Part shown: positions 613 through 12,799 of the stretch, piece by piece
How the letters are laid out: every line of letters begins with the position of its first letter
Position numbering within the stretch: position 1 is the first letter of the stretch
NCBI GenBank assembly: GCA_019057375.1
Contig: DXJF01000155.1
Span: 1-13,203 of the forward strand
Length of the DNA stretch: 13,203 nucleotides
From: Candidatus Heimdallarchaeota archaeon
Lineage (GTDB): Archaea > Asgardarchaeota > Heimdallarchaeia > Heimdallarchaeales > Heimdallarchaeaceae
Direction: 5' to 3'
Translations under genes and position numbers: made by a program
Notes under the pieces: generated by a model
Databases searched by the model: none
What the model was told of the DNA's origin: nothing
What the model saw: only the letters and a program-made list of their open reading frames with translations

Positions 613-658
613 TTATTAAATTAAAAGTACTATTTGAGTTAACAAATAAGTGATAAAT

Positions 659-1081
659 ATGGAAACAAAGGAAAAACTTCTTGTGGAAAAAATAAAATTC
701 CATACAGAAATTGAATTTAATGGTTCAGTAGCAGATTTTGTGGATTTTACTAAACAATTAGTAAATCTTGATAATACAAAAATCAGAGTAGAATGGGATG
801 ATGTTCACCCTACGGGATGCAGTAAGCTTGCAAGTTACAAATTCTTTGATAAAGAATTCACAGATAGGCACCTAAAAGACATTAGACCAATACAATTACA
901 AGACATCTATGGAGGAATCAGAACTCCCCATATCCATCTAGATGATTTTAATGTGATTTTTCTGAATAGAGATGTATTTAAACAAGTAGTTGATTACAGT
1001 GCATCTAGAATAAGCTCAGAAATTAGCAAAGATATAAACTTCGATCATGTAGAATTTATGGATAAAATGAGAAAACTATAA
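659..1081 (+). CDS. Uncharacterised ~140-aa protein with GGIRxPHxH motif; candidate substrate or partner of the adjacent radical SAM enzyme
   Basis: Clean ORF (track start GTG 650). ATG 659 is preceded by SD-like AAGTGA. Motifs EIEFNGSV, HPTGC and IYGGIRTPHIHL. Lies directly upstream of the rSAM/SPASM gene. Confidence 0.8.
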   Translation: METKEKLLVEKIKFHTEIEFNGSVADFVDFTKQLVNLDNTKIRVEWDDVHPTGCSKLASYKFFDKEFTDRHLKDIRPIQLQDIYGGIRTPHIHLDDFNVIFLNRDVFKQVVDYSASRISSEISKDINFDHVEFMDKMRKL

Positions 1082-1129
1082 TATTCTTATTATCTACCAA
1101 AACTAATTTATTTTTTTTGGAGATTTAAA

Positions 1130-2233
1130 ATGAAATGTTCGCTTAGCTTAACACATGACTGTAATATGGCTTGTAACTACTGCTATGCTGGGGTGAAAAA
1201 CTCAGAAGTAATGGATATTGAGATAGCAAAGAAGATTATTGATTTTATTTTTAAAACTATACCAAAAGACCAAAGTATTGAAATTAATTATTTTGGTGGT
1301 GAACCCTTTCTAGAATTTGATCTCATCAGAGAAATAACAAAATATGTACGGAAAATAGAGCAAAAATACAAAAATCCTGTTATGATTGGTATAACATCAA
1401 ATGGTACATTGCTAACAAGTGAAATATTAGATTACCTAAAACACGAAAGAATTAGTCTTTGTGTAAGTATTGATGGAAATCAGCAGGTGCATGATAGAAA
1501 TAGAAAATTTTCATCAGGAAAAGGAAGTTTTAGCTTAGTTAATGAGAAACTTGATTTAGCCTTAAGCATTCTTGACTACGTCCAAGTTAATGCAGTATAT
1601 GGACCAGATACTGTTGACAAATTACTTGAAACCGTTTCTTTCTTGTCAGAGAAGAATGTCTCTTCGATTCATCTAAATCCGAATATTACTGCTCAGTGGA
1701 GTAATGATTATTACCCAATTTTGAGAAAAAAATTTCAAGAAATTGCTGATTATTACATTTCTAGTTACACCAATGGTCAGGAAATTGCTATTAATTATAT
1801 TGACAACAAAATTATCATTTTTCTAAAAGGGGGGTATAGTGATTTTGATAAATGTCATATGGGAGAATTGGAGTGGGGATTCGCTCCAAGTGGAAATATA
1901 TATCCGTGTGAGAGATTAGTTGGTGATGATAACAATGAATCCTTTTGTATGGGAAATACACAAACAGGATTGAATGTTGATCGTCAATCCACAATTCTTT
2001 GGTCTAAGAATCAAATGGGAAACCTCAAGTGCAGAAATTGTGAGCTTCAGCAATATTGTATGAACTGGTGTGGTTGTACAAATTATTTTATGACTGGGAA
2101 AACGAATCAAACTGGAGAATTCATGTGTGCAAATGAACGCGCTGCAATTGAGGCTGCTAGAAGAGTTTTGATTTCACTGAAAGATAATCCATTATTCATC
2201 GATCATTTTTATCAATACTTACAAAGAAAATAA
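1130..2233 (+). CDS. Radical SAM protein with C-terminal SPASM domain (anSME/peptide-maturase-like)
   Basis: CNMACNYC (CxxxCxxC), FGGEPFL, TSNGTLL, VSIDG. SPASM cysteines in DKC...GNIYPC...CRNCELQQYCMNWCGC...FMC. GGAG SD at 1119-1122. Confidence 0.95.
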   Translation: MKCSLSLTHDCNMACNYCYAGVKNSEVMDIEIAKKIIDFIFKTIPKDQSIEINYFGGEPFLEFDLIREITKYVRKIEQKYKNPVMIGITSNGTLLTSEILDYLKHERISLCVSIDGNQQVHDRNRKFSSGKGSFSLVNEKLDLALSILDYVQVNAVYGPDTVDKLLETVSFLSEKNVSSIHLNPNITAQWSNDYYPILRKKFQEIADYYISSYTNGQEIAINYIDNKIIIFLKGGYSDFDKCHMGELEWGFAPSGNIYPCERLVGDDNNESFCMGNTQTGLNVDRQSTILWSKNQMGNLKCRNCELQQYCMNWCGCTNYFMTGKTNQTGEFMCANERAAIEAARRVLISLKDNPLFIDHFYQYLQRK

Positions 2234-2346: not shown

Positions 2347-2412
2347 ACTACTATAAAATTCACTAAATCTCTATATACAAAAAACGATATAACGTTTCTT
2401 TGAGGTGACATT

Positions 2413-2802
2413 ATGAAGGAAGAGAGTTTTCCAAAATTTCGTGAAACAATAATAAAACCAACAGTAAAACAAATAATTGATACAATCGCTGATCCGCCAC
2501 CTGATCTTTACAGAATAATAACTAAAGATAGATGGAAACATATTATTGAAGCACAAATAAAATTAAAACTTAAATCAATTGAATTTGAGATAGAGTCACA
2601 AAAAACCACATTTCCCTTAACTATTACTTCAAAGAAAACAAATTGGTTTCTAGTAGAAATTAACGATAGTTTTGTTCTGATTGACACAGGCTATACAAGT
2701 GAGGGACTGGTTATCGAAGAAGCACTAGATAATGAGGGGTGTACATCTGCAAATCTTAATCTTATCTTATTAACTCATGCTTGGAAGAAAGAATACCATT
2801 AG
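2413..2802 (+). CDS. Chimeric ORF: N-terminal DPPP small-protein paralog (aa 1-~64) fused to a truncated metallo-beta-lactamase-fold fragment (aa ~65-123); may be a pseudogene
   Basis: The N-terminus aligns with 3255-3464 (FPxxxE, DPPP, IxxD[RK]WK, Q, EIE). The C-terminus NWFLVEINDSFVLIDTG...EGCTSANLNLILLTHA resembles the first strands of an MBL hydrolase but ends before a complete HxHxDH-type site. GAGGTGA SD at 2402-2408. Confidence 0.7.
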   Translation: MKEESFPKFRETIIKPTVKQIIDTIADPPPDLYRIITKDRWKHIIEAQIKLKLKSIEFEIESQKTTFPLTITSKKTNWFLVEINDSFVLIDTGYTSEGLVIEEALDNEGCTSANLNLILLTHAWKKEYH

Positions 2803-2812
2803 TATTTTTTGT

Positions 2813-3082
2813 TTATTTCTCAGATTGTATTTCTCTTATCTTTTTAATTACAGGAAACATATTGTTAAACTCAAAAACAATCTTTTTTTCTAATTCTTCA
2901 ATTTCTTCCTTTTTTGCATTAAATTCGTCTATATTTTCATCAATTAATTGCGTATCCACTCTCGCACCAAATCCGCTGATTTCGAAAATAAACTCGCTTT
3001 GAATATCCAATATTGCCTCTTCCAAGTCTAGAAGACTCCCAACAGTTGTTTCAATTTTTTCATCATACTTGTCTTTATTCAT
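2813..3082 (-). CDS. Small acidic, probably helical hypothetical protein (89 aa from MNKDK)
   Basis: GAGG SD is correctly spaced before ATG 3082 (track start 3094). TTTATATA box on the minus strand at 3116-3123. Rich in E/D/K/I. Confidence 0.7.
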   Translation of the reverse strand: MNKDKYDEKIETTVGSLLDLEEAILDIQSEFIFEISGFGARVDTQLIDENIDEFNAKKEEIEELEKKIVFEFNNMFPVIKKIREIQSEK

Positions 3083-3115
3083 AAACATCCTCAAACATTA
3101 AGATTTTCTTCAGAA

Positions 3116-3123
3116 TATATAAA
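3116..3123 (-). promoter_or_regulatory. Putative TATA box for the 89-aa gene
   Basis: Reads TTTATATA on the minus strand, about 35-40 nt upstream of ATG 3082. Confidence 0.5.
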
Positions 3124-3209
3124 CAACACCCTTATTGATATTACAGAGTTTAACCCGATTCAACATTCCATTAATAAATATACAAGAATATTAATTGATT
3201 CAGCTAAAG

Positions 3210-3247
3210 TTTATATATTTAAATAAATTAGTGTTTCTTTGAGGTGA
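3210..3247 (+). promoter_or_regulatory. Putative TATA box and SD for the DPPP peptide/B12-rSAM operon
   Basis: TTTATATA at 3210-3217 preceded by GCTAAAG. GAGGTGA at 3241-3247. Confidence 0.6.
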
Positions 3248-3254
3248 ATCGATT

Positions 3255-3464
3255 ATGGAAAAAAGATTTCCAGAATTAGGAGAACTAGTAAAATTTAAGC
3301 ATGTATTTGATCCACCACCTCCGTTTCTACATCTAATAGATGAGGATAAATGGAAAGATGTAGTTCAAATACAATTGGAATATGAAGCATTATTACTTAA
3401 ACATGAAATAGAAATTCTTACTGAAAAACTTCGAATGTACGAGAAATTGAAAAAGATTCTCTAG
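3255..3464 (+). CDS. 69-aa DPPP(P)-motif protein with a predicted amphipathic/coiled-coil C-terminal helix; candidate precursor or substrate
   Basis: Strong SD and TATA. VFDPPPPFL motif followed by a helix-like tail. Paralogous to the N-terminus of 2413-2802. Stop codon is 2 nt from the B12-rSAM TTG start. Confidence 0.8.
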   Translation: MEKRFPELGELVKFKHVFDPPPPFLHLIDEDKWKDVVQIQLEYEALLLKHEIEILTEKLRMYEKLKKIL

Positions 3465-3466
3465 GA

Positions 3467-5050
3467 TTGTTTTACTTAATGAACAATAATCTAATATCTT
3501 TCGTAGCACATAAGAATCAAGAAAATCTTGGTATTGGGTATTTATGCTCAATGTTACATTCTATAAACTTTGAGATTGAAATAATTGACTTCGATTTAGA
3601 AAAAGAAGAGATGCTAGAGAAATTAAATACATCAGATCCTTTAATTGTTGGCTTCTCTCTTATTTTTCAATTTTATTTATACAAATTTAAGAAAATTGTT
3701 AACTTTTTAAGAAGCAATGGTATCCAGTGTCATTTTACAGTTGGAGGACATTATCCTAGTCTCAGATATGATGATCTGCTCAACTACTTACCTGAGTTAG
3801 ACTCTGTTGTGAGATTTGAGGGGGAACATATAATCTGTGAATTAGCAGAAAAAATAAAGAAAGGAGAGGAATGGAGAAAAATCAAAGGGATTGCATATCT
3901 AGATAATGATACTCCATTTTCAAATGAACTTAGACCTCTGATTACAAATCTTGATTCTCTACCCTTTCCTTACAGATCAAAGGATAATCCTCATGAAATT
4001 CTAGGGAACAGAATATCCTATCTTTTAGCAAGTAGGGGGTGCATAAGAAATTGTTCTTTCTGTAGTGTCAGGAAATTTTACTCAACTCCAACAGGTAAAT
4101 TAAGGCGTAACAGAACCCCTGAAAATGTTGTTAAAGAAATTGAAGGATTACACAAGAATGATAACACTACAATCTTCTTATTTCAAGATGATGATTTCGT
4201 ATTACCTGGAAAAAAAGGATTAGAATGGATTAATAGCTTTGTAGAATTACTAGTATCTAAAAAACTAGGAGAAAAAATCCTCTGGAAAATAAGTTGTAGA
4301 TCTGATGAAATTAACTATGAACTTTTTAAAAGGATGAAAGAAGTTGGTTTAGCAACTGTCTATTTAGGGATTGAATCAGGAGTTGAACATGAATTAGAAA
4401 TTATGAATAAACAATTACACGTCAAGGATCATATTGAAGCTGTTAAAATTCTAAAATCACTTGACTTAACTTATGAATATGGTTTCATGTTATTTAATCC
4501 TTACAGTACTTTTGAAACAACTCAAAATAATGTTAAATTCTTAAAAGAAATATGTGGGGATGGAAGTGCTCCAATTGTGTTTTGCAAAATGGTACCTTAT
4601 GCAGGAACAGCTATCGAACAAAAGTTGATTGTAGAAAATCGATTGATAAAATCTGTTACGAATCCAGATTATGTTTTCCTAGATTCAAAACTAAATGAGT
4701 TTTACGATTTCTTTTCTTTGATTTTTAATGAATGGATTCATTCAAATCAAGGAATATTGACTCGCTTACGTTGGCACAGACTTGAGTTAGAAGTTCTAAA
4801 AAAGGATTATCCAGATGCAAAAGGATTCAAGGAGTACATAGTATTCCAGAAAAAAATAATAGCTGAATTTAATTCATTATTCTTTAAAATATTTGATAAA
4901 ACGAAGTCGTCATTTCATAATAATGATTTTGTTTCTTTTGCAACTAGAGAAGAAATTAGGAAACAATTAATCTCTGAGCAAAATAGGATTCTAGAAAAAT
5001 GGCATGGAGGAATAAGAGAATTTTCTAACCAAAACAGGGAACAAAGCTAA
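3467..5050 (+). CDS. B12-binding-domain radical SAM protein (class B methyltransferase-like)
   Basis: QENLGIGYL, VGGHYPSL, SRGCIRNCSFC (CxxxCxxC), FQDDDF, YLGIESG, GFMLFNP and PYAGT motifs. Start is TTG 3467 or ATG 3479. Confidence 0.93.
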   Translation: MFYLMNNNLISFVAHKNQENLGIGYLCSMLHSINFEIEIIDFDLEKEEMLEKLNTSDPLIVGFSLIFQFYLYKFKKIVNFLRSNGIQCHFTVGGHYPSLRYDDLLNYLPELDSVVRFEGEHIICELAEKIKKGEEWRKIKGIAYLDNDTPFSNELRPLITNLDSLPFPYRSKDNPHEILGNRISYLLASRGCIRNCSFCSVRKFYSTPTGKLRRNRTPENVVKEIEGLHKNDNTTIFLFQDDDFVLPGKKGLEWINSFVELLVSKKLGEKILWKISCRSDEINYELFKRMKEVGLATVYLGIESGVEHELEIMNKQLHVKDHIEAVKILKSLDLTYEYGFMLFNPYSTFETTQNNVKFLKEICGDGSAPIVFCKMVPYAGTAIEQKLIVENRLIKSVTNPDYVFLDSKLNEFYDFFSLIFNEWIHSNQGILTRLRWHRLELEVLKKDYPDAKGFKEYIVFQKKIIAEFNSLFFKIFDKTKSSFHNNDFVSFATREEIRKQLISEQNRILEKWHGGIREFSNQNREQS

Positions 5051-5129: not shown

Positions 5130-5867
5130 CTAATACACTATTGCTGAAGATGCCGAATTCCCGAAGTAGTTCCACCAAAATCCGAAAAATCCTAAATTGC
5201 ACCCTACGTAGAATCTAGCTCCTTTGTAATATGTATCTGAATATAAATATGCATAGCTTCCACATGAAAGTGATGCTGATTCAGCTCTGTTATCAAAACC
5301 ATACCAGCTAAGGTGTGGATAATATTTGGGGTATCTAGTATAACAGTAAGAGTATCCTCCTGGAAGAGTAATAGATGCACCACCCCACCAAGTATAATCA
5401 AATAGATGTAAACTATGGGTTGGTCTTTCATAATGTGGATCATGATTCTCTAGAATTTTTTGTATCTCTGCGTGTTGTTCTGGTTTGAGTTTATGTTTCT
5501 CTAAGAATTTGTTGTACTTTTCAGTTGCTTCTTCAACTTTTTTTACTTGTTGCTTTTTTATCTTCTCAAGTTCTTCTGGTGTTTTTTCTTTGGTAAATTT
5601 TTTAGCTAATTCTTTGTCTTTTTTGTATTGATCTAACAAGTCTCTATCCTCTAACCATTTTTCAAATTTCTCTTCAGTTGTAAAAGCATAAATCTTTCCA
5701 TCAGTTTCTGATTCTTTAGGTGCAGCAAAAAAAGGGATATTTTTTCCTTTTTCTTTCTTAAACTCTTCTGCTTCGTAATCTTTCTCAGGTCCTTTAATGT
5801 GTTTCTTATCTTCAGAAAGAGTATACTCCTCTCCATCAATTATTACTTTTGAAATATCTTTCTTCAT
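5130..5867 (-). CDS. 245-aa protein with a highly charged N-terminal region and a C-terminal beta/gamma-crystallin-like (two Greek key) domain
   Basis: GGAGGTTGA SD precedes ATG 5867 (MKKDISK), so the track start at 5897 is probably too long. The C-terminus has two similar units, LFDYTWWGG...HLSWYGFDNRAES and LYSDTYYKG...NLG...YFGNSASS, resembling crystallin Greek-key repeats. Confidence 0.65.
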   Translation of the reverse strand: MKKDISKVIIDGEEYTLSEDKKHIKGPEKDYEAEEFKKEKGKNIPFFAAPKESETDGKIYAFTTEEKFEKWLEDRDLLDQYKKDKELAKKFTKEKTPEELEKIKKQQVKKVEEATEKYNKFLEKHKLKPEQHAEIQKILENHDPHYERPTHSLHLFDYTWWGGASITLPGGYSYCYTRYPKYYPHLSWYGFDNRAESASLSCGSYAYLYSDTYYKGARFYVGCNLGFFGFWWNYFGNSASSAIVY

Positions 5868-6102
5868 ATATATCAACCTCCGTATACTATGAAGCAATTT
5901 GTACTCGCATATATTTATTTAAACGTTTGTATATTTGATTCGTTTTTGGTTTATAGTATTAGACAATGTTTTTATAGATGTTGGTTTGATGTAGCTTTTA
6001 TAATAAAAACAGATAGACAAGAAACTGTAGTTATTTAAAAGATATTAACTGAAAAATATCTGCTTATGATGCAATACAATATTTTGATTGTATCTTCCAA
6101 TA

Positions 6103-7266: not shown

Positions 7267-8679
7267 GTGTCAAACCATATTATGTCCGAAGCAACAAAAA
7301 TAATAGAACTAATAGACAAATTTCCTTTTCTAGAGGAGATATTAGTGGAATTAGATCCTATTTTAAAACGCTTTCAAAACCCTATTATTCGTAAAACTGT
7401 GGGTAAAAAAGCTACACTGACTGATGTTGCCAGTCTTATTAATCAAGATCTCAAATCGGTAATAGATTTTTTCTCAAGCAAAATTGAACAACACATAGGG
7501 GATAAAGTGGACGTACAAATTGGTTCAACTGGTAAAAGTGGTTTTGAAGATGAACATGTACGAAAGAGAGAAATGCTCAAAGCTCTTGTGCTGGAACTTC
7601 ACGCAGGAGGAGAAAAATCCGTACTGAAAGCTCGGTTCAAGGAAATATTAGGAGATGTAGAGGCTACAGATATAGCTTCAATGGAACAAGAGTTAATCAA
7701 TTCTGGAGAGTTAACAGTTGATCAAATCACCTTGTTATGTGATTTACATGTAGGAATCTTTGAGGATTCATTGGAAAAAAATCTTAGACCTGAAGAATCT
7801 CCAGGTCACCCAATACATACTTACATGGAAGAAAATCGTGTTGCTGAAGAGTTGATTGCAGATATCAGAGAAACTCCTACTCCTGAATTAATTCAAAAAC
7901 TAGCCGATATTGAGATTCATTATACTAGATTGGAAAACCAACTGTTTCCTATGTTAGAAAAGAAAGAGTTCGAAGGTCCTTCTCAAGTCATGTGGGCAAA
8001 ACATGATGAGGTTCGACAATTGATTCGTCAAGGAAGCGAAGTTGATGCGGAAGAATTTGCTACACAAGTAGAAGATATGATTTTTAAAGAAGAAACTATA
8101 CTCTTCCCCACAAGTTTAGAACTTTTGACCATTCAAGATTGGCAAAAGGTGAAAAATGGAGAAGAAGAAATAGGTTTTGCTTGGGTTTCTCCTGGTGATG
8201 AATGGAAACCTATTACTCCAGAAGTTATTCATAAAGTAGAGGAACCTCCACAATTAACAGATATCTTGTCTATGCAAACCGGAAAGCTTACACTTGAACA
8301 GATTAATTTGATTATGACTAATCTTCCAATTGAGATATCCTTCATTAATGAGAATGAGGAAGTAGCATATTACTCGGATACTAAAGAAAGAATTTTTCCC
8401 CGTAGTCCTGGTGTTATAGGTAGAAAAGTCCAAAGATGTCACCCACCAAAGAGTCTTGATAAAGTAATGAAAATTATAGAAGCGTTCAAGACTGGTCAAA
8501 AAGATGTAGCTGAATTCTGGATAAATATGAATGGGAAATATATTCACATACGTTACTTCGCAATTCGAGATAACTCTGGAAAATATCGCGGGTCATTAGA
8601 GGTTATGCAGAATGTTACATCCATTCGAGCATTAGAGGGAGAAAGAAGATTGATTAATTGGGGAGAAGATGCTAAGTAG
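7267..8679 (+). CDS. DUF438-family protein (DUF1858-like N-terminus, DUF438, hemerythrin-like domain, C-terminal PAS_10)
   Basis: ELHAG, CDLHVGIF, PGHPIHTYMEEN, HYTRLENQLFP, GPSQVMWAKHDEVR, KEETILFP, RIFPRSPGVIGRKVQRCHPPKS, YFAIRDNSGKYRGSLEV. Confidence 0.92.
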   Translation: MSNHIMSEATKIIELIDKFPFLEEILVELDPILKRFQNPIIRKTVGKKATLTDVASLINQDLKSVIDFFSSKIEQHIGDKVDVQIGSTGKSGFEDEHVRKREMLKALVLELHAGGEKSVLKARFKEILGDVEATDIASMEQELINSGELTVDQITLLCDLHVGIFEDSLEKNLRPEESPGHPIHTYMEENRVAEELIADIRETPTPELIQKLADIEIHYTRLENQLFPMLEKKEFEGPSQVMWAKHDEVRQLIRQGSEVDAEEFATQVEDMIFKEETILFPTSLELLTIQDWQKVKNGEEEIGFAWVSPGDEWKPITPEVIHKVEEPPQLTDILSMQTGKLTLEQINLIMTNLPIEISFINENEEVAYYSDTKERIFPRSPGVIGRKVQRCHPPKSLDKVMKIIEAFKTGQKDVAEFWINMNGKYIHIRYFAIRDNSGKYRGSLEVMQNVTSIRALEGERRLINWGEDAK

Positions 8680-11617: not shown

Positions 11618-12799
11618 TTAAAAGAGATTTAGCTCTTTGTGTTTTTCAACTATTTTTTCTGCCATTATATCTAATGCTTTAAAATCCTCTTCTTTTGGGT
11701 GACCTTTGGTATAAACAGGTTCTAAAATCTCAACTTCCTTTAATCCAGGTACCATGCTGACAACTTGGTCAATGGTCTTTGTAAACCATCCATAAGAGCC
11801 AATAACTGAAATTAGTTTAATTTTTGGTTTCAAAGCATTTAGTAGATAGGTTGCATAAACTGCTAATGGGTGTGGACCAGCATGAACTGTTGGAGTGCCA
11901 AGAATCACCGTAGCTGCATCAACTAGAGTTATAGCAAGTTTACCTATATCTACAACAGCTAAATCAAACTGATAGACAGTTACATCTTTTTTTGCTAGAG
12001 CACCAACTAAGTATTCAACCATGATCCTTGTGCTTCCGTGCATTGATACATAAGGAATAACAACAACATTTTTTGGAGTATCTGAAATCCAATCTTCATA
12101 AGCATCTATTATGAAAGAGGGTTTGTCATAGATAGGACCATGACTAGGAGCTATCAATTGAATTTCCATTTTTTTTACTTTCTCAATGTTTTTTCGAATA
12201 ATTTTACTGAAAGGCATCATTATTTCAGCAAAATATCTTTTAGCAGCTTCATAGACTAATCCTTCATCTCTAACATAGAGATCAGTTGTTGCAACATGTG
12301 AGCCAAAAAAGTCACAAGAAAAGAGTATCTTATCTTCTACAAGGTAAGAAACCATTGTTTCTGGCCAATGAACCCAAGGAGTATGGATGAATTTTAAAGT
12401 CTTATCCCCTAAAGAAATTTCCTCCCCGTCTTCTACAATCTGTATTTGTTCTGGAGAAATCAATAAATGATCTATTAGCATTTCTTTTCCTTTTTTAGTT
12501 GCGAGAACTAATGCAGAAGGATATTTCTTAAGAACTGTTGGTATTGCTCCTGAATGATCTTGTTCTGTATGGCTAGATACAATGTAATCTATTTTTTCAA
12601 CATCTTTCAATTGAGTCAAGAGTATATTAATCATTTTTGGATCTACAGTGTCAATTAGAACATTCTTTTCACTACCTATAATCAAATATGAATTGTAACT
12701 GGTTCCATCAGGAAGAGGTATAAGGGAATCAAACAACCTTCTATCCCAATCAATTGCACCTAACCAAAAGACATTTTCTCTTATTTTTCTCTTTTTCAT
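11618..12799 (-). CDS. fprA: Flavodiiron protein (FprA family A-type flavoprotein)
   Basis: GTSYNSYLI, LIDTV, SHTEQDHSG (HxExDH), HWPE, SCDFFGSH, APSHGP, and a C-terminal flavodoxin domain (YVSMHGST, GSYGW). Confidence 0.95.
   Translation of the reverse strand: MKKRKIRENVFWLGAIDWDRRLFDSLIPLPDGTSYNSYLIIGSEKNVLIDTVDPKMINILLTQLKDVEKIDYIVSSHTEQDHSGAIPTVLKKYPSALVLATKKGKEMLIDHLLISPEQIQIVEDGEEISLGDKTLKFIHTPWVHWPETMVSYLVEDKILFSCDFFGSHVATTDLYVRDEGLVYEAAKRYFAEIMMPFSKIIRKNIEKVKKMEIQLIAPSHGPIYDKPSFIIDAYEDWISDTPKNVVVIPYVSMHGSTRIMVEYLVGALAKKDVTVYQFDLAVVDIGKLAITLVDAATVILGTPTVHAGPHPLAVYATYLLNALKPKIKLISVIGSYGWFTKTIDQVVSMVPGLKEVEILEPVYTKGHPKEEDFKALDIMAEKIVEKHKELNLF

What the first reader, a model, noticed from the sequence alone, without database searches (positions are those of the whole stretch)
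2394..3464. Duplicated DPPP small-protein genes that share a 15-nt leader
Seen: both genes are preceded by the identical 15-mer GTTTCTTTGAGGTGA (2394-2408 and 3233-3247) and then TTATG. Their products align: FPKFRE/FPELGE, IADPPPDL/VFDPPPPF, IITKDRWK/LIDEDKWK, EAQ/QIQ, FEIE/HEIE. The segment before DPPP is about 7 aa longer in copy 1. Inference: a paralogous precursor family with a conserved Asp-Pro-Pro-Pro core and a C-terminal helical 'follower' for enzyme recognition or oligomerisation, the reverse of the usual leader-core layout.
Basis: partly seen in the sequence, partly recalled or inferred. Interest (0 to 1): 0.7.

Follow-up and report, generated by a model that had tools for sequence, protein, structure and literature searches.

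The report
Asp-Pro small proteins paired with B12-radical-SAM
The two look-alike genes belong to an unannotated family of ~70-residue proteins, with an invariant Asp-Pro motif followed by one long helix, that sits directly upstream of one clade of cobalamin-type radical SAM enzyme in archaea and many bacterial phyla; it is probably the enzyme's substrate, in a modification system I found no description of.

Summary
The exact 15-mer occurs only at 2394-2408 and 3233-3247 in the window and in the whole 3.47-Mb genome. The two products are homologous (BLASTP E 2e-7).

Three points are new:
- Gene 1 (2413-2802) is not small. It is a 129-aa chimera: a DPPP module lacking its last ~11 residues, fused to an inactive fragment of a metallo-beta-lactamase gene.
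- Gene 2 (69 aa), and a third paralogue on another contig, each lie 11-14 nt upstream of a B12-binding radical SAM gene.
- This pairing is general. In 77 of 80 loci fetched with the enzyme (Asgard archaea, Bathyarchaeia, Acidobacteriota, Proteobacteria, Kitasatospora and others), a homologous small ORF lies directly upstream.

Across the family Asp is invariant. The next Pro is kept in 95% of members and the Pro at +3 in 73%. A long amphipathic helix follows. No Pfam or NCBIfam model matches, and every source calls these proteins hypothetical.

Best reading (about 0.55): a RiPP-like substrate modified at the Asp-Pro motif, with the helix as docking element. Main rival: a non-substrate accessory subunit.

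The 15-mer is the Shine-Dalgarno sequence plus promoter-proximal bases, not a structured RNA.

Other first-reader notes of this scan cover this same stretch of this genome. A sequence look-up found no look-alike in other windows.

The parts
2371..2377 (+). TATA-like box upstream of gene 1 (CTATATA)
   Evidence: Read directly. An ATATA core aligns in all three paralogue upstream regions. Its promoter role is inferred from archaeal promoter geometry.
2394..2408 (+). 15-mer leader copy 1; Shine-Dalgarno GAGGTGA at 2402-2408, 4 nt before the ATG
   Evidence: GAGGTGA occurs 184 times in the genome, 73 of them 3-10 nt before a start codon. TCTTTGAGGTGA occurs only at these two sites.
2413..2802 (+). 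Gene 1, a 129-aa chimeric ORF. Residues 1-63 are the DPPP module (Asp-Pro-Pro-Pro codons at 2491-2502) lacking the last ~11 residues of the helix. Residues ~70-123 are an internal N-terminal fragment of a metallo-beta-lactamase-fold gene that ends just where the HxHxDH motif should begin.
   Evidence: Pfam PF00753 matches residues 76-123, E 1.5e-5. The module is 56% identical to the C111 paralogue over 66 aa. The tail is 45% identical to an intact 254-aa MBL ORF on contig C5. A contig of the source run bridges the junction.
2813..3094 (-). 93-aa acidic helical ORF between the two genes; no family assigned and not shown to belong to the system
   Evidence: only a weak sub-threshold Pfam hit.
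3210..3217 (+). TATA-like box upstream of gene 2 (TTTATATA)
   Evidence: promoter role inferred.
3233..3247 (+). 15-mer leader copy 2; Shine-Dalgarno GAGGTGA at 3241-3247, 7 nt before the ATG
   Evidence: No Rfam match and no fold beyond shuffled controls.
3255..3464 (+). Gene 2, a 69-aa member of the Asp-Pro small-protein family (Asp-Pro-Pro-Pro-Pro codons at 3309-3323). Residues 1-22 are flexible; a long helix spans 30-68.
   Evidence: An 83%-identical orthologue, P0002, exists in a public assembly.
3479..5050 (+). B12-binding (class B) radical SAM enzyme, the conserved partner gene; its ATG is 14 nt after the gene 2 stop
   Evidence: PF02310 and PF04055. The CxxxCxxC cysteines are invariant in 32 homologues. 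AF2 model pLDDT 92. The best fold matches are OxsB, TsrM, MgmA/QCMT, CysS and TokK.

Best explanation
Genes 1 and 2, plus a third copy on contig C111, belong to an unannotated family of ~60-110-residue proteins. Each has a flexible N-terminal segment carrying an invariant Asp-Pro motif (mostly D-P-x-P followed by W or F), then one long amphipathic helix. The family is encoded as a two-gene cassette directly upstream of one distinct clade of cobalamin-dependent (class B) radical SAM enzyme. The most likely mechanism is RiPP-like. The small protein is the enzyme's substrate. The helix, and perhaps the N-terminal P-E-F segment, docks on the enzyme, possibly on its C-terminal four-helix bundle. 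The enzyme then modifies an unactivated carbon at or next to the Asp-Pro motif; C-methylation is the default chemistry for this enzyme class. No protease or exporter is conserved with the pair, so the modified protein probably stays whole and inside the cell. Shown here: homology, motif conservation, strict gene adjacency across domains, co-divergence with the enzyme, the predicted fold, and the class of the enzyme. Inferred: that the small protein binds the enzyme, that it is modified, and at which site and by what chemistry. The shared 15-mer is the ribosome-binding site (GAGGTGA) plus 8 promoter-proximal or 5'-UTR bases inherited by both paralogues. Gene 1 is a rearranged remnant that has lost its helix end and its own enzyme gene.
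For: Adjacency: an iterated HMM over 4,314 plus-strand ORFs from 80 enzyme-anchored loci gave 78 hits, all immediately upstream of the enzyme, in 77 of 80 loci. Two of the three misses lack upstream DNA, and the third (L079) has a 174-aa ORF with DPPPW. In the window's own genome, two of the three copies are followed 11-14 nt later by paralogous enzymes that are 63% identical. Motif: D 100%, P 95%, P+3 73%; the helix carries a 3-4 residue hydrophobic stripe. Substrate-like features: repeated DPxP(W/F) units within single proteins (L022, L031, L039, L069, L079) and two tandem small genes before one enzyme in L050. The motif lies in the low-confidence flexible part of the model. Motif subtypes follow the enzyme clades. 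Gene 2 has a strong Shine-Dalgarno sequence, while the enzyme gene has only AGG overlapping the stop codon. Enzyme: B12 and radical SAM domains, invariant cluster cysteines, and a class I B12-rSAM fold. Its nearest solved sequence relative is the protein-modifying glutamine C-methyltransferase 9CCB (PMC12931638).
Against: There is no direct evidence of binding or modification. The small proteins are conserved along their whole length, not only in a leader or a core, which also fits a folded partner subunit. No protease, exporter or RRE domain is conserved nearby, unlike most RiPP clusters. The second Pro is missing in some clades (DPID, DPAV, DPIG), so only Asp-Pro is general. Class B radical SAM enzymes also carry out non-methylating chemistry, so the reaction type is open.
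Confidence: 0.55

Rival explanations
1. The small protein is not a substrate but an accessory subunit or adaptor of the B12 radical SAM enzyme. Its long helix packs against the enzyme's C-terminal helix bundle, and the Asp-Pro loop helps to form or gate the active site for a different substrate (a small molecule, a lipid or another protein).
For: The protein is conserved over its full length, with a continuous hydrophobic stripe on the helix. The enzyme ends in four long helices. The cassette has no protease or exporter. There is precedent for a small partner protein being needed by a class B enzyme: MpcC with MpcB in clavusporin biosynthesis (PMC10849626).
Against: Repeated motif units within one protein and tandem small genes before one enzyme are unusual for a stoichiometric subunit. 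The motif lies in a flexible region. No fused small-protein/enzyme form was found among 80 loci or in a search of longer proteins, which is weak evidence.
Confidence: 0.3
2. The small protein has its own function (for example a coiled-coil structural or regulatory protein) and is merely syntenic with the enzyme.
For: No biochemical link has been shown, and the single long helix could self-associate.
Against: Adjacency is kept in 77 of 80 loci from two domains and more than ten phyla, while all other neighbours change. The small protein was found in only 2 of 201 sampled genomes of the window's phylum and 3 of 201 of a second phylum, always beside the enzyme in the loci held. The pair therefore moves as a unit.
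Confidence: 0.05
3. Gene 1 is still a working second substrate, fed to the enzyme encoded about 670 nt downstream, and not a dead remnant.
For: It keeps an intact TATA-like box, the identical 15-mer, an open frame and an unchanged DPPPDLYR motif.
Against: It has lost the last ~11 helix residues. It is fused to a beta-lactamase fragment that lacks the metal-binding motif. No other protein with this architecture was found.
Confidence: 0.3

Closest known systems
Bottromycin precursor BotA with its class B radical SAM methyltransferases (my own knowledge of the literature, not tested here)
   Same: A ribosomal substrate whose recognition part lies C-terminal to the modified residues (a 'follower'). 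Cobalamin-dependent radical SAM enzymes act on sp3 carbons, including that of a proline.
   Different: In bottromycin the core starts right after Met1 and the cluster also has YcaO enzymes, proteases and an exporter. Here 18-26 residues precede the motif, the cassette has two genes only, and the enzyme is not a recognised orthologue.
Clavusporin system MpcA/MpcB/MpcC (PMC10849626)
   Same: A small ribosomal peptide with leader, core and follower is C-methylated (including on Pro) by a B12 radical SAM enzyme encoded just downstream.
   Different: MpcB has a CX7CX2C motif, needs the DUF5825 partner MpcC, and sits with an S9 peptidase and an MFS transporter in Actinobacteria only. The window enzyme has CX3CX2C, none of those partners is present, and the pair occurs in archaea and many bacterial phyla.
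MgmA/QCMT, the methyl-coenzyme M reductase glutamine C-methyltransferase (PDB 9CCB; PMC12931638)
   Same: It is the nearest solved sequence relative of the enzyme (E 7.5e-13), has the same class I B12-rSAM fold, and acts on a protein substrate.
   Different: Identity is only about 20%. The NCBIfam model TIGR04014 scores 88.6 bits against a cutoff of 360. Its substrate is a large enzyme subunit, not a dedicated small protein encoded next door.
SCIFF (ScfA/ScfB) two-gene cassettes (my own knowledge)
   Same: A widespread minimal cassette of one small conserved protein and one radical SAM enzyme, with no conserved protease or exporter and no known role.
   Different: SCIFF uses a SPASM thioether-forming enzyme and a Cys-rich peptide. 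The proteins here have no Cys, and the enzyme is cobalamin-type.

Membership tests
Class B (cobalamin-dependent) radical SAM enzymes (partner gene 3479-5050) | N-terminal B12-binding Rossmann domain | tested here: met
   PF02310 E 2.5e-15, 56.8 bits against cutoff 32.1. Fold matches OxsB, TsrM, MgmA, CysS and TokK.
Class B (cobalamin-dependent) radical SAM enzymes (partner gene 3479-5050) | Radical SAM core with a CxxxCxxC cluster motif | tested here: met
   PF04055 at 64.9 bits. C188, C192 and C195 are invariant in 32 homologues.
Class B (cobalamin-dependent) radical SAM enzymes (partner gene 3479-5050) | Cobalamin actually bound, and methyl transfer or other B12 chemistry | not testable with these tools
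   Needs purified protein.
RiPP precursor peptides (generic) | Small ribosomal gene next to its modifying enzyme, conserved as a pair | tested here: met
   77 of 80 loci, plus two pairs in the window's own genome.
RiPP precursor peptides (generic) | Enzyme-dependent covalent modification of the peptide | not testable with these tools
   Needs mass spectrometry after co-expression.
RiPP precursor peptides (generic) | Leader or follower removal and export genes in the cluster | tested here: not met
   No protease or transporter is conserved. The commonest extra neighbours (DUF711, a sulfotransferase, a BMC shell protein) occur in about 10 of 80 loci each.
Ranthipeptide / PapB-type substrates (because of the SPASM enzyme at 1130-2233) | Cys-containing CX3D/E-type motifs for thioether formation | tested here: not met
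   The DPPP module of gene 1, gene 2 and the C111 copy contain no Cys. The SPASM gene is absent from the C111 locus and from the 80 loci. The enzyme itself scores 237 bits against the PapB cutoff of 340.
Clavusporin Mpc system | CX7CX2C enzyme, DUF5825 partner, S9 peptidase and MFS transporter | tested here: not met
   The motif is CX3CX2C, and no such neighbours are present. Criteria are taken from PMC10849626.
Pfam DUF7355 (only weak Pfam hint for the small-protein part) | Score above the gathering threshold | tested here: not met
   Gene 1 scores 13.3 bits against cutoff 27 (E 0.085). DUF7355 is not among the families matched by any of the 45 members scanned at E up to 1.
Metallo-beta-lactamase fold (tail of gene 1) | HxHxDH metal-binding motif and the full ~200-residue domain | tested here: not met
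   Only profile positions 6-52 of 196 are present. The ORF ends at LLTHAWKKEYH, where the intact paralogue has LLTHGDFDH.

The most novel reading that the evidence does not exclude
A pan-domain protein-modification system that I found no description of. One clade of cobalamin-dependent radical SAM enzyme modifies the invariant Asp-Pro site of a dedicated ~70-residue helical protein. The protein is neither cleaved nor exported, so the product would be a modified intracellular small protein (for example a protein-derived cofactor or a switch) instead of a secreted natural product, possibly with new chemistry on Asp or Pro.
Probability: 0.35. Interest if true: 0.8.

Novelty: new variant of a known kind. 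Interest (0 to 1): 0.62.

Why it matters
Class B radical SAM enzymes carry out some of the hardest reactions in biology, and most of their clades have no known substrate. This clade comes with a built-in candidate substrate and an invariant two-residue site, so its chemistry can be tested directly by a simple two-gene co-expression. The cassette is rare within each phylum sampled (about 1-1.5% of sampled genomes) but spans Asgard archaea, Bathyarchaeia and at least ten bacterial phyla, which points to a mobile accessory function. The small-protein family is absent from Pfam and NCBIfam and is labelled hypothetical everywhere, so defining it would improve annotation of several hundred genomes.

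Tried and rejected
- Complex prediction of gene 2 with its enzyme, plus SAM and a 4Fe-4S cluster: no verdict. The score was 0.36, but one control reached 0.22. This is not used as evidence either way.
Conservation of the 15-mer in orthologues is therefore untested.
- A metagenome scan with gene 2 found no relative.
- No RNA run holding the stretch was listed, so expression is untested.
- The ESM Atlas gave only sub-0.9 hits to unrelated eukaryotic clusters.
- A profile search of solved structures with the small-protein alignment gave only chance coiled-coil hits.
- PADLOC gave no meaningful defence-system assignment.
- Rfam and RNA folding of the leaders found no family and no structure beyond shuffles. 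A riboswitch or structured leader is rejected.
- The search for longer, fused forms found none, which is weak evidence.
- Eight literature searches found no description of this pair. The library lacks most subscription journals, so prior description cannot be excluded.
- The idea that the upstream SPASM enzyme is part of the same system is rejected for lack of support. It is not conserved with the pair, and the proteins have no Cys.

Full report
**1. Observation**

The 15-mer GTTTCTTTGAGGTGA is at 2394-2408 and 3233-3247. No further copy occurs in the window at up to 2 mismatches (0.06 expected). None occurs in the 3.47-Mb genome at up to 1 mismatch. Both copies are followed by TTATG.

- Gene 1 is 2413-2802 and gene 2 is 3255-3464.
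- Their products align around DPPP with 12/37 identities, E 2e-7.
- Gene 1 against gene 2 at the DNA level is 15/15 identical in the 15-mer, 56% in the coding part and 44% further upstream. The leader is therefore better kept than the gene.

**2. What the 15-mer is**

Its last seven bases, GAGGTGA, match the canonical Shine-Dalgarno complement of the 16S rRNA 3' end (established knowledge).

- GAGGTGA occurs 184 times in this 33% G+C genome, 73 of them 3-10 nt before a start codon.
- The longer TCTTTGAGGTGA occurs only at these two sites.
- An ATATA core, TATA-like, aligns about 17-20 nt upstream in all three paralogues.
- By archaeal promoter geometry, transcription would then start inside the 15-mer. 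This is an inference.
- The third paralogue has a diverged version (11 of 13 aligned bases and a 2-nt gap).
- There is no Rfam match, and the leader RNAs fold no better than shuffled controls.

I read the 15-mer as ribosome-binding site plus promoter-proximal bases, retained by constraint or by local gene conversion between two genes 840 bp apart.

**3. Gene 1 is a chimera**

The ORF encodes 129 residues.

- Residues 1-63 are 56% identical to the paralogue on contig C111, but stop about 11 residues short of its helix end.
- Residues 76-123 match the start of the metallo-beta-lactamase domain (PF00753, E 1.5e-5).
- That part is 45% identical to an intact 254-aa protein on contig C5.
- The frame ends exactly where the HxHxDH motif should begin, so this part cannot be catalytic.
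- A contig of the probable source run (marine sediment metagenome, 2015) covers 1800-2727 and bridges the junction. A second contig starts at 2703, and the beta-lactamase homology continues in frame across their overlap. This is the same sample, so it is not independent support.
- No other protein with this architecture was found.

**4. Context in the genome**

- Gene 2 is followed 14 nt later by a 523-aa protein with a B12-binding domain and a radical SAM domain.
- The third paralogue (74 aa, contig C111) is followed 11 nt later by a paralogous enzyme that is 63% identical.
- Gene 1 has no enzyme gene of its own.
- The SPASM-type radical SAM gene at 1130-2233 scores below the cutoff for every NCBIfam peptide-maturase model (best PapB, 237 against 340).
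- That SPASM gene is not found at the C111 locus or at related loci, and the DPPP proteins have no cysteine. I do not count it as part of the unit.

**5. The pair is conserved across domains**

A scan of species-representative genomes with the enzyme found 407 relatives, and the best 80 loci were kept. They come from Promethearchaeota, Bathyarchaeia, Acidobacteriota, Alpha-, Gamma- and Deltaproteobacteria, Verrucomicrobiota, Kitasatospora, Anaerolineales, Thermotogae and others, at 40-53% identity.

- An HMM started from the four archaeal proteins was iterated over all 4,314 plus-strand ORFs of these loci. It converged on 78 ORFs, every one directly upstream of the enzyme, in 77 of 80 loci.
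- Two of the missing loci have no upstream DNA. The third has a 174-aa ORF with DPPPW.
- No other neighbour is conserved. DUF711, a sulfotransferase and a BMC shell protein each occur in about 10 loci of related genomes.
- The enzyme tree groups the archaeal copies together, with the window's two enzymes as sisters. Motif subtypes of the small protein follow the enzyme clades.
- The cassette is sparse. It was found in none of the 24 other sampled genomes of the genus (using the smaller A1 profile), in 2 of 201 sampled genomes of the window's phylum, and in 3 of 201 in the phylum of locus L041.

**6. Anatomy of the family**

Over 82 sequences with about 15% mean identity:

- Asp is invariant, the next Pro is kept in 95%, and Pro at +3 in 73%.
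- W or F follows at +5. Upstream there is an L-x-F-x-P-x-W pattern in bacteria, or hydrophobic-P-E-F in archaea.
- Variants at the motif are DPPP 16, DPGP 13, DPVP 12, DPIP 9 and others.
- Five members carry two to four DPxP(W/F) units, and one locus has two tandem small genes.
- AlphaFold2 on the 45-sequence alignment gives a flexible N-terminus (pLDDT about 60), a short helix at 23-27, and a long helix at 30-68 (pLDDT above 90).
- Conserved hydrophobic positions recur every 3-4 residues along the long helix.
- No Pfam or NCBIfam model matches any of the 45 members scanned.
- In the 5.8-billion-protein collection, every hit that carries a name is called 'hypothetical protein' and none has a Pfam domain.

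**7. The enzyme**

- The model has pLDDT 92 and pTM 0.90. It shows a Rossmann domain, a TIM-barrel core and four long C-terminal helices.
- The best fold matches are OxsB, TsrM, MgmA/QCMT, CysS and TokK.
- By sequence, the nearest solved relatives are 9CCB (E 7.5e-13) and OxsB. 9CCB is the methyl-coenzyme M reductase glutamine C-methyltransferase (PMC12931638).
- All NCBIfam hits lie far below their cutoffs (BchE 133 bits, PhpK 117, ApyD 93). The clade is uncharacterised.

**8. Interpretation**

These points favour a substrate role, that is a RiPP-like precursor modified at the Asp-Pro site with the helix as docking element:

- strict adjacency of the two genes;
- co-divergence of small protein and enzyme;
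- the flexible location of an invariant dipeptide;
- repeated motif units and tandem small genes;
- the strong ribosome-binding site of the small gene.

These points keep an accessory-subunit model alive:

- conservation along the whole length of the small protein;
- the lack of any protease or exporter.

The chemistry is inferred only. C-methylation of an sp3 carbon is the class default, but other B12-dependent radical SAM reactions are known. The complex prediction gave no verdict and is not counted as evidence.

**9. Comparison and novelty**

- The system works most like follower-type or leader-core-follower substrates of class B enzymes (bottromycin; clavusporin, PMC10849626). It fails the defining features of both.
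- As a minimal cassette it resembles SCIFF, but with a different enzyme class.
- I found no description in the curated family libraries or in the paper library searched. That library lacks most subscription journals.

I rate it a new variant of a known kind.

**10. Earlier notes**

- The scan holds other first-reader notes on this same stretch. One proposes methylation of the DPPP motif by the B12 enzyme, which agrees with my reading. One proposes a two-radical-SAM system; the second enzyme is not supported here.
- A follow-up report on an overlapping stretch is withheld.
- A follow-up on another piece of this genome calls the organism a Heimdall-group Asgard archaeon. This fits the Promethearchaeota and Hodarchaeota affiliations of the closest hits, but I did not test it.

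Noticed in passing
window 650-2233: A radical SAM/SPASM peptide-maturase-like gene (1130-2233; best model PapB, 237 bits, below cutoff; no N-terminal RRE) is preceded by a 143-aa ORF (650-1081) with no family hit. This is possibly a separate enzyme-substrate pair. It is not conserved with the Asp-Pro/B12 cassette.
   Followed up: partly
window 5130-5897 (-): A 255-aa ORF with no family hit. It has a Lys/Glu-rich helical first half and a strikingly Tyr/Trp/Gly/Ser-rich C-terminal ~90 residues. It is convergent with the B12 radical SAM gene.
   Followed up: no
window 2813-3094 (-): A 93-aa acidic helical ORF lies between the two Asp-Pro genes, with a GAGG ribosome-binding site before an internal ATG. 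The only hit is weak and sub-threshold, to the calcium-binding protein SSO6904 family (E 0.044).
   Followed up: partly
L031, L039, L069, L079 (small ORFs upstream of the enzyme): In one enzyme clade (Syntrophales, a deltaproteobacterium, Thermoanaerobaculaceae, Thermotogae) the small protein is longer. It carries two to four DPxP(W/F) units in a Trp/Pro-rich N-terminal extension.
   Followed up: partly
L054-L056, L062, L064, L068, L070, L074-L076, L083, L085, L086, L090, L092, L096, L100: In a mainly Pyrinomonadaceae/Acidobacteriota group the small protein is short (57-90 aa), has a Lys/Ala-rich N-terminal tail (MATKKKAAKK-like) and a shorter helix. BMC shell-protein and DUF711 genes are frequent neighbours in about 10 of the 80 loci.
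   Followed up: partly
window 7267-8679 and 11618-12799: One gene encodes a DUF1858-DUF438-hemerythrin-PAS_10 protein. A minus-strand 393-aa ORF has a beta-lactamase-like N-terminal half and looks like a flavodiiron protein; this was read by eye and not scanned. Together they suggest oxygen or NO sensing and detoxification genes of an anaerobe.
   Followed up: no
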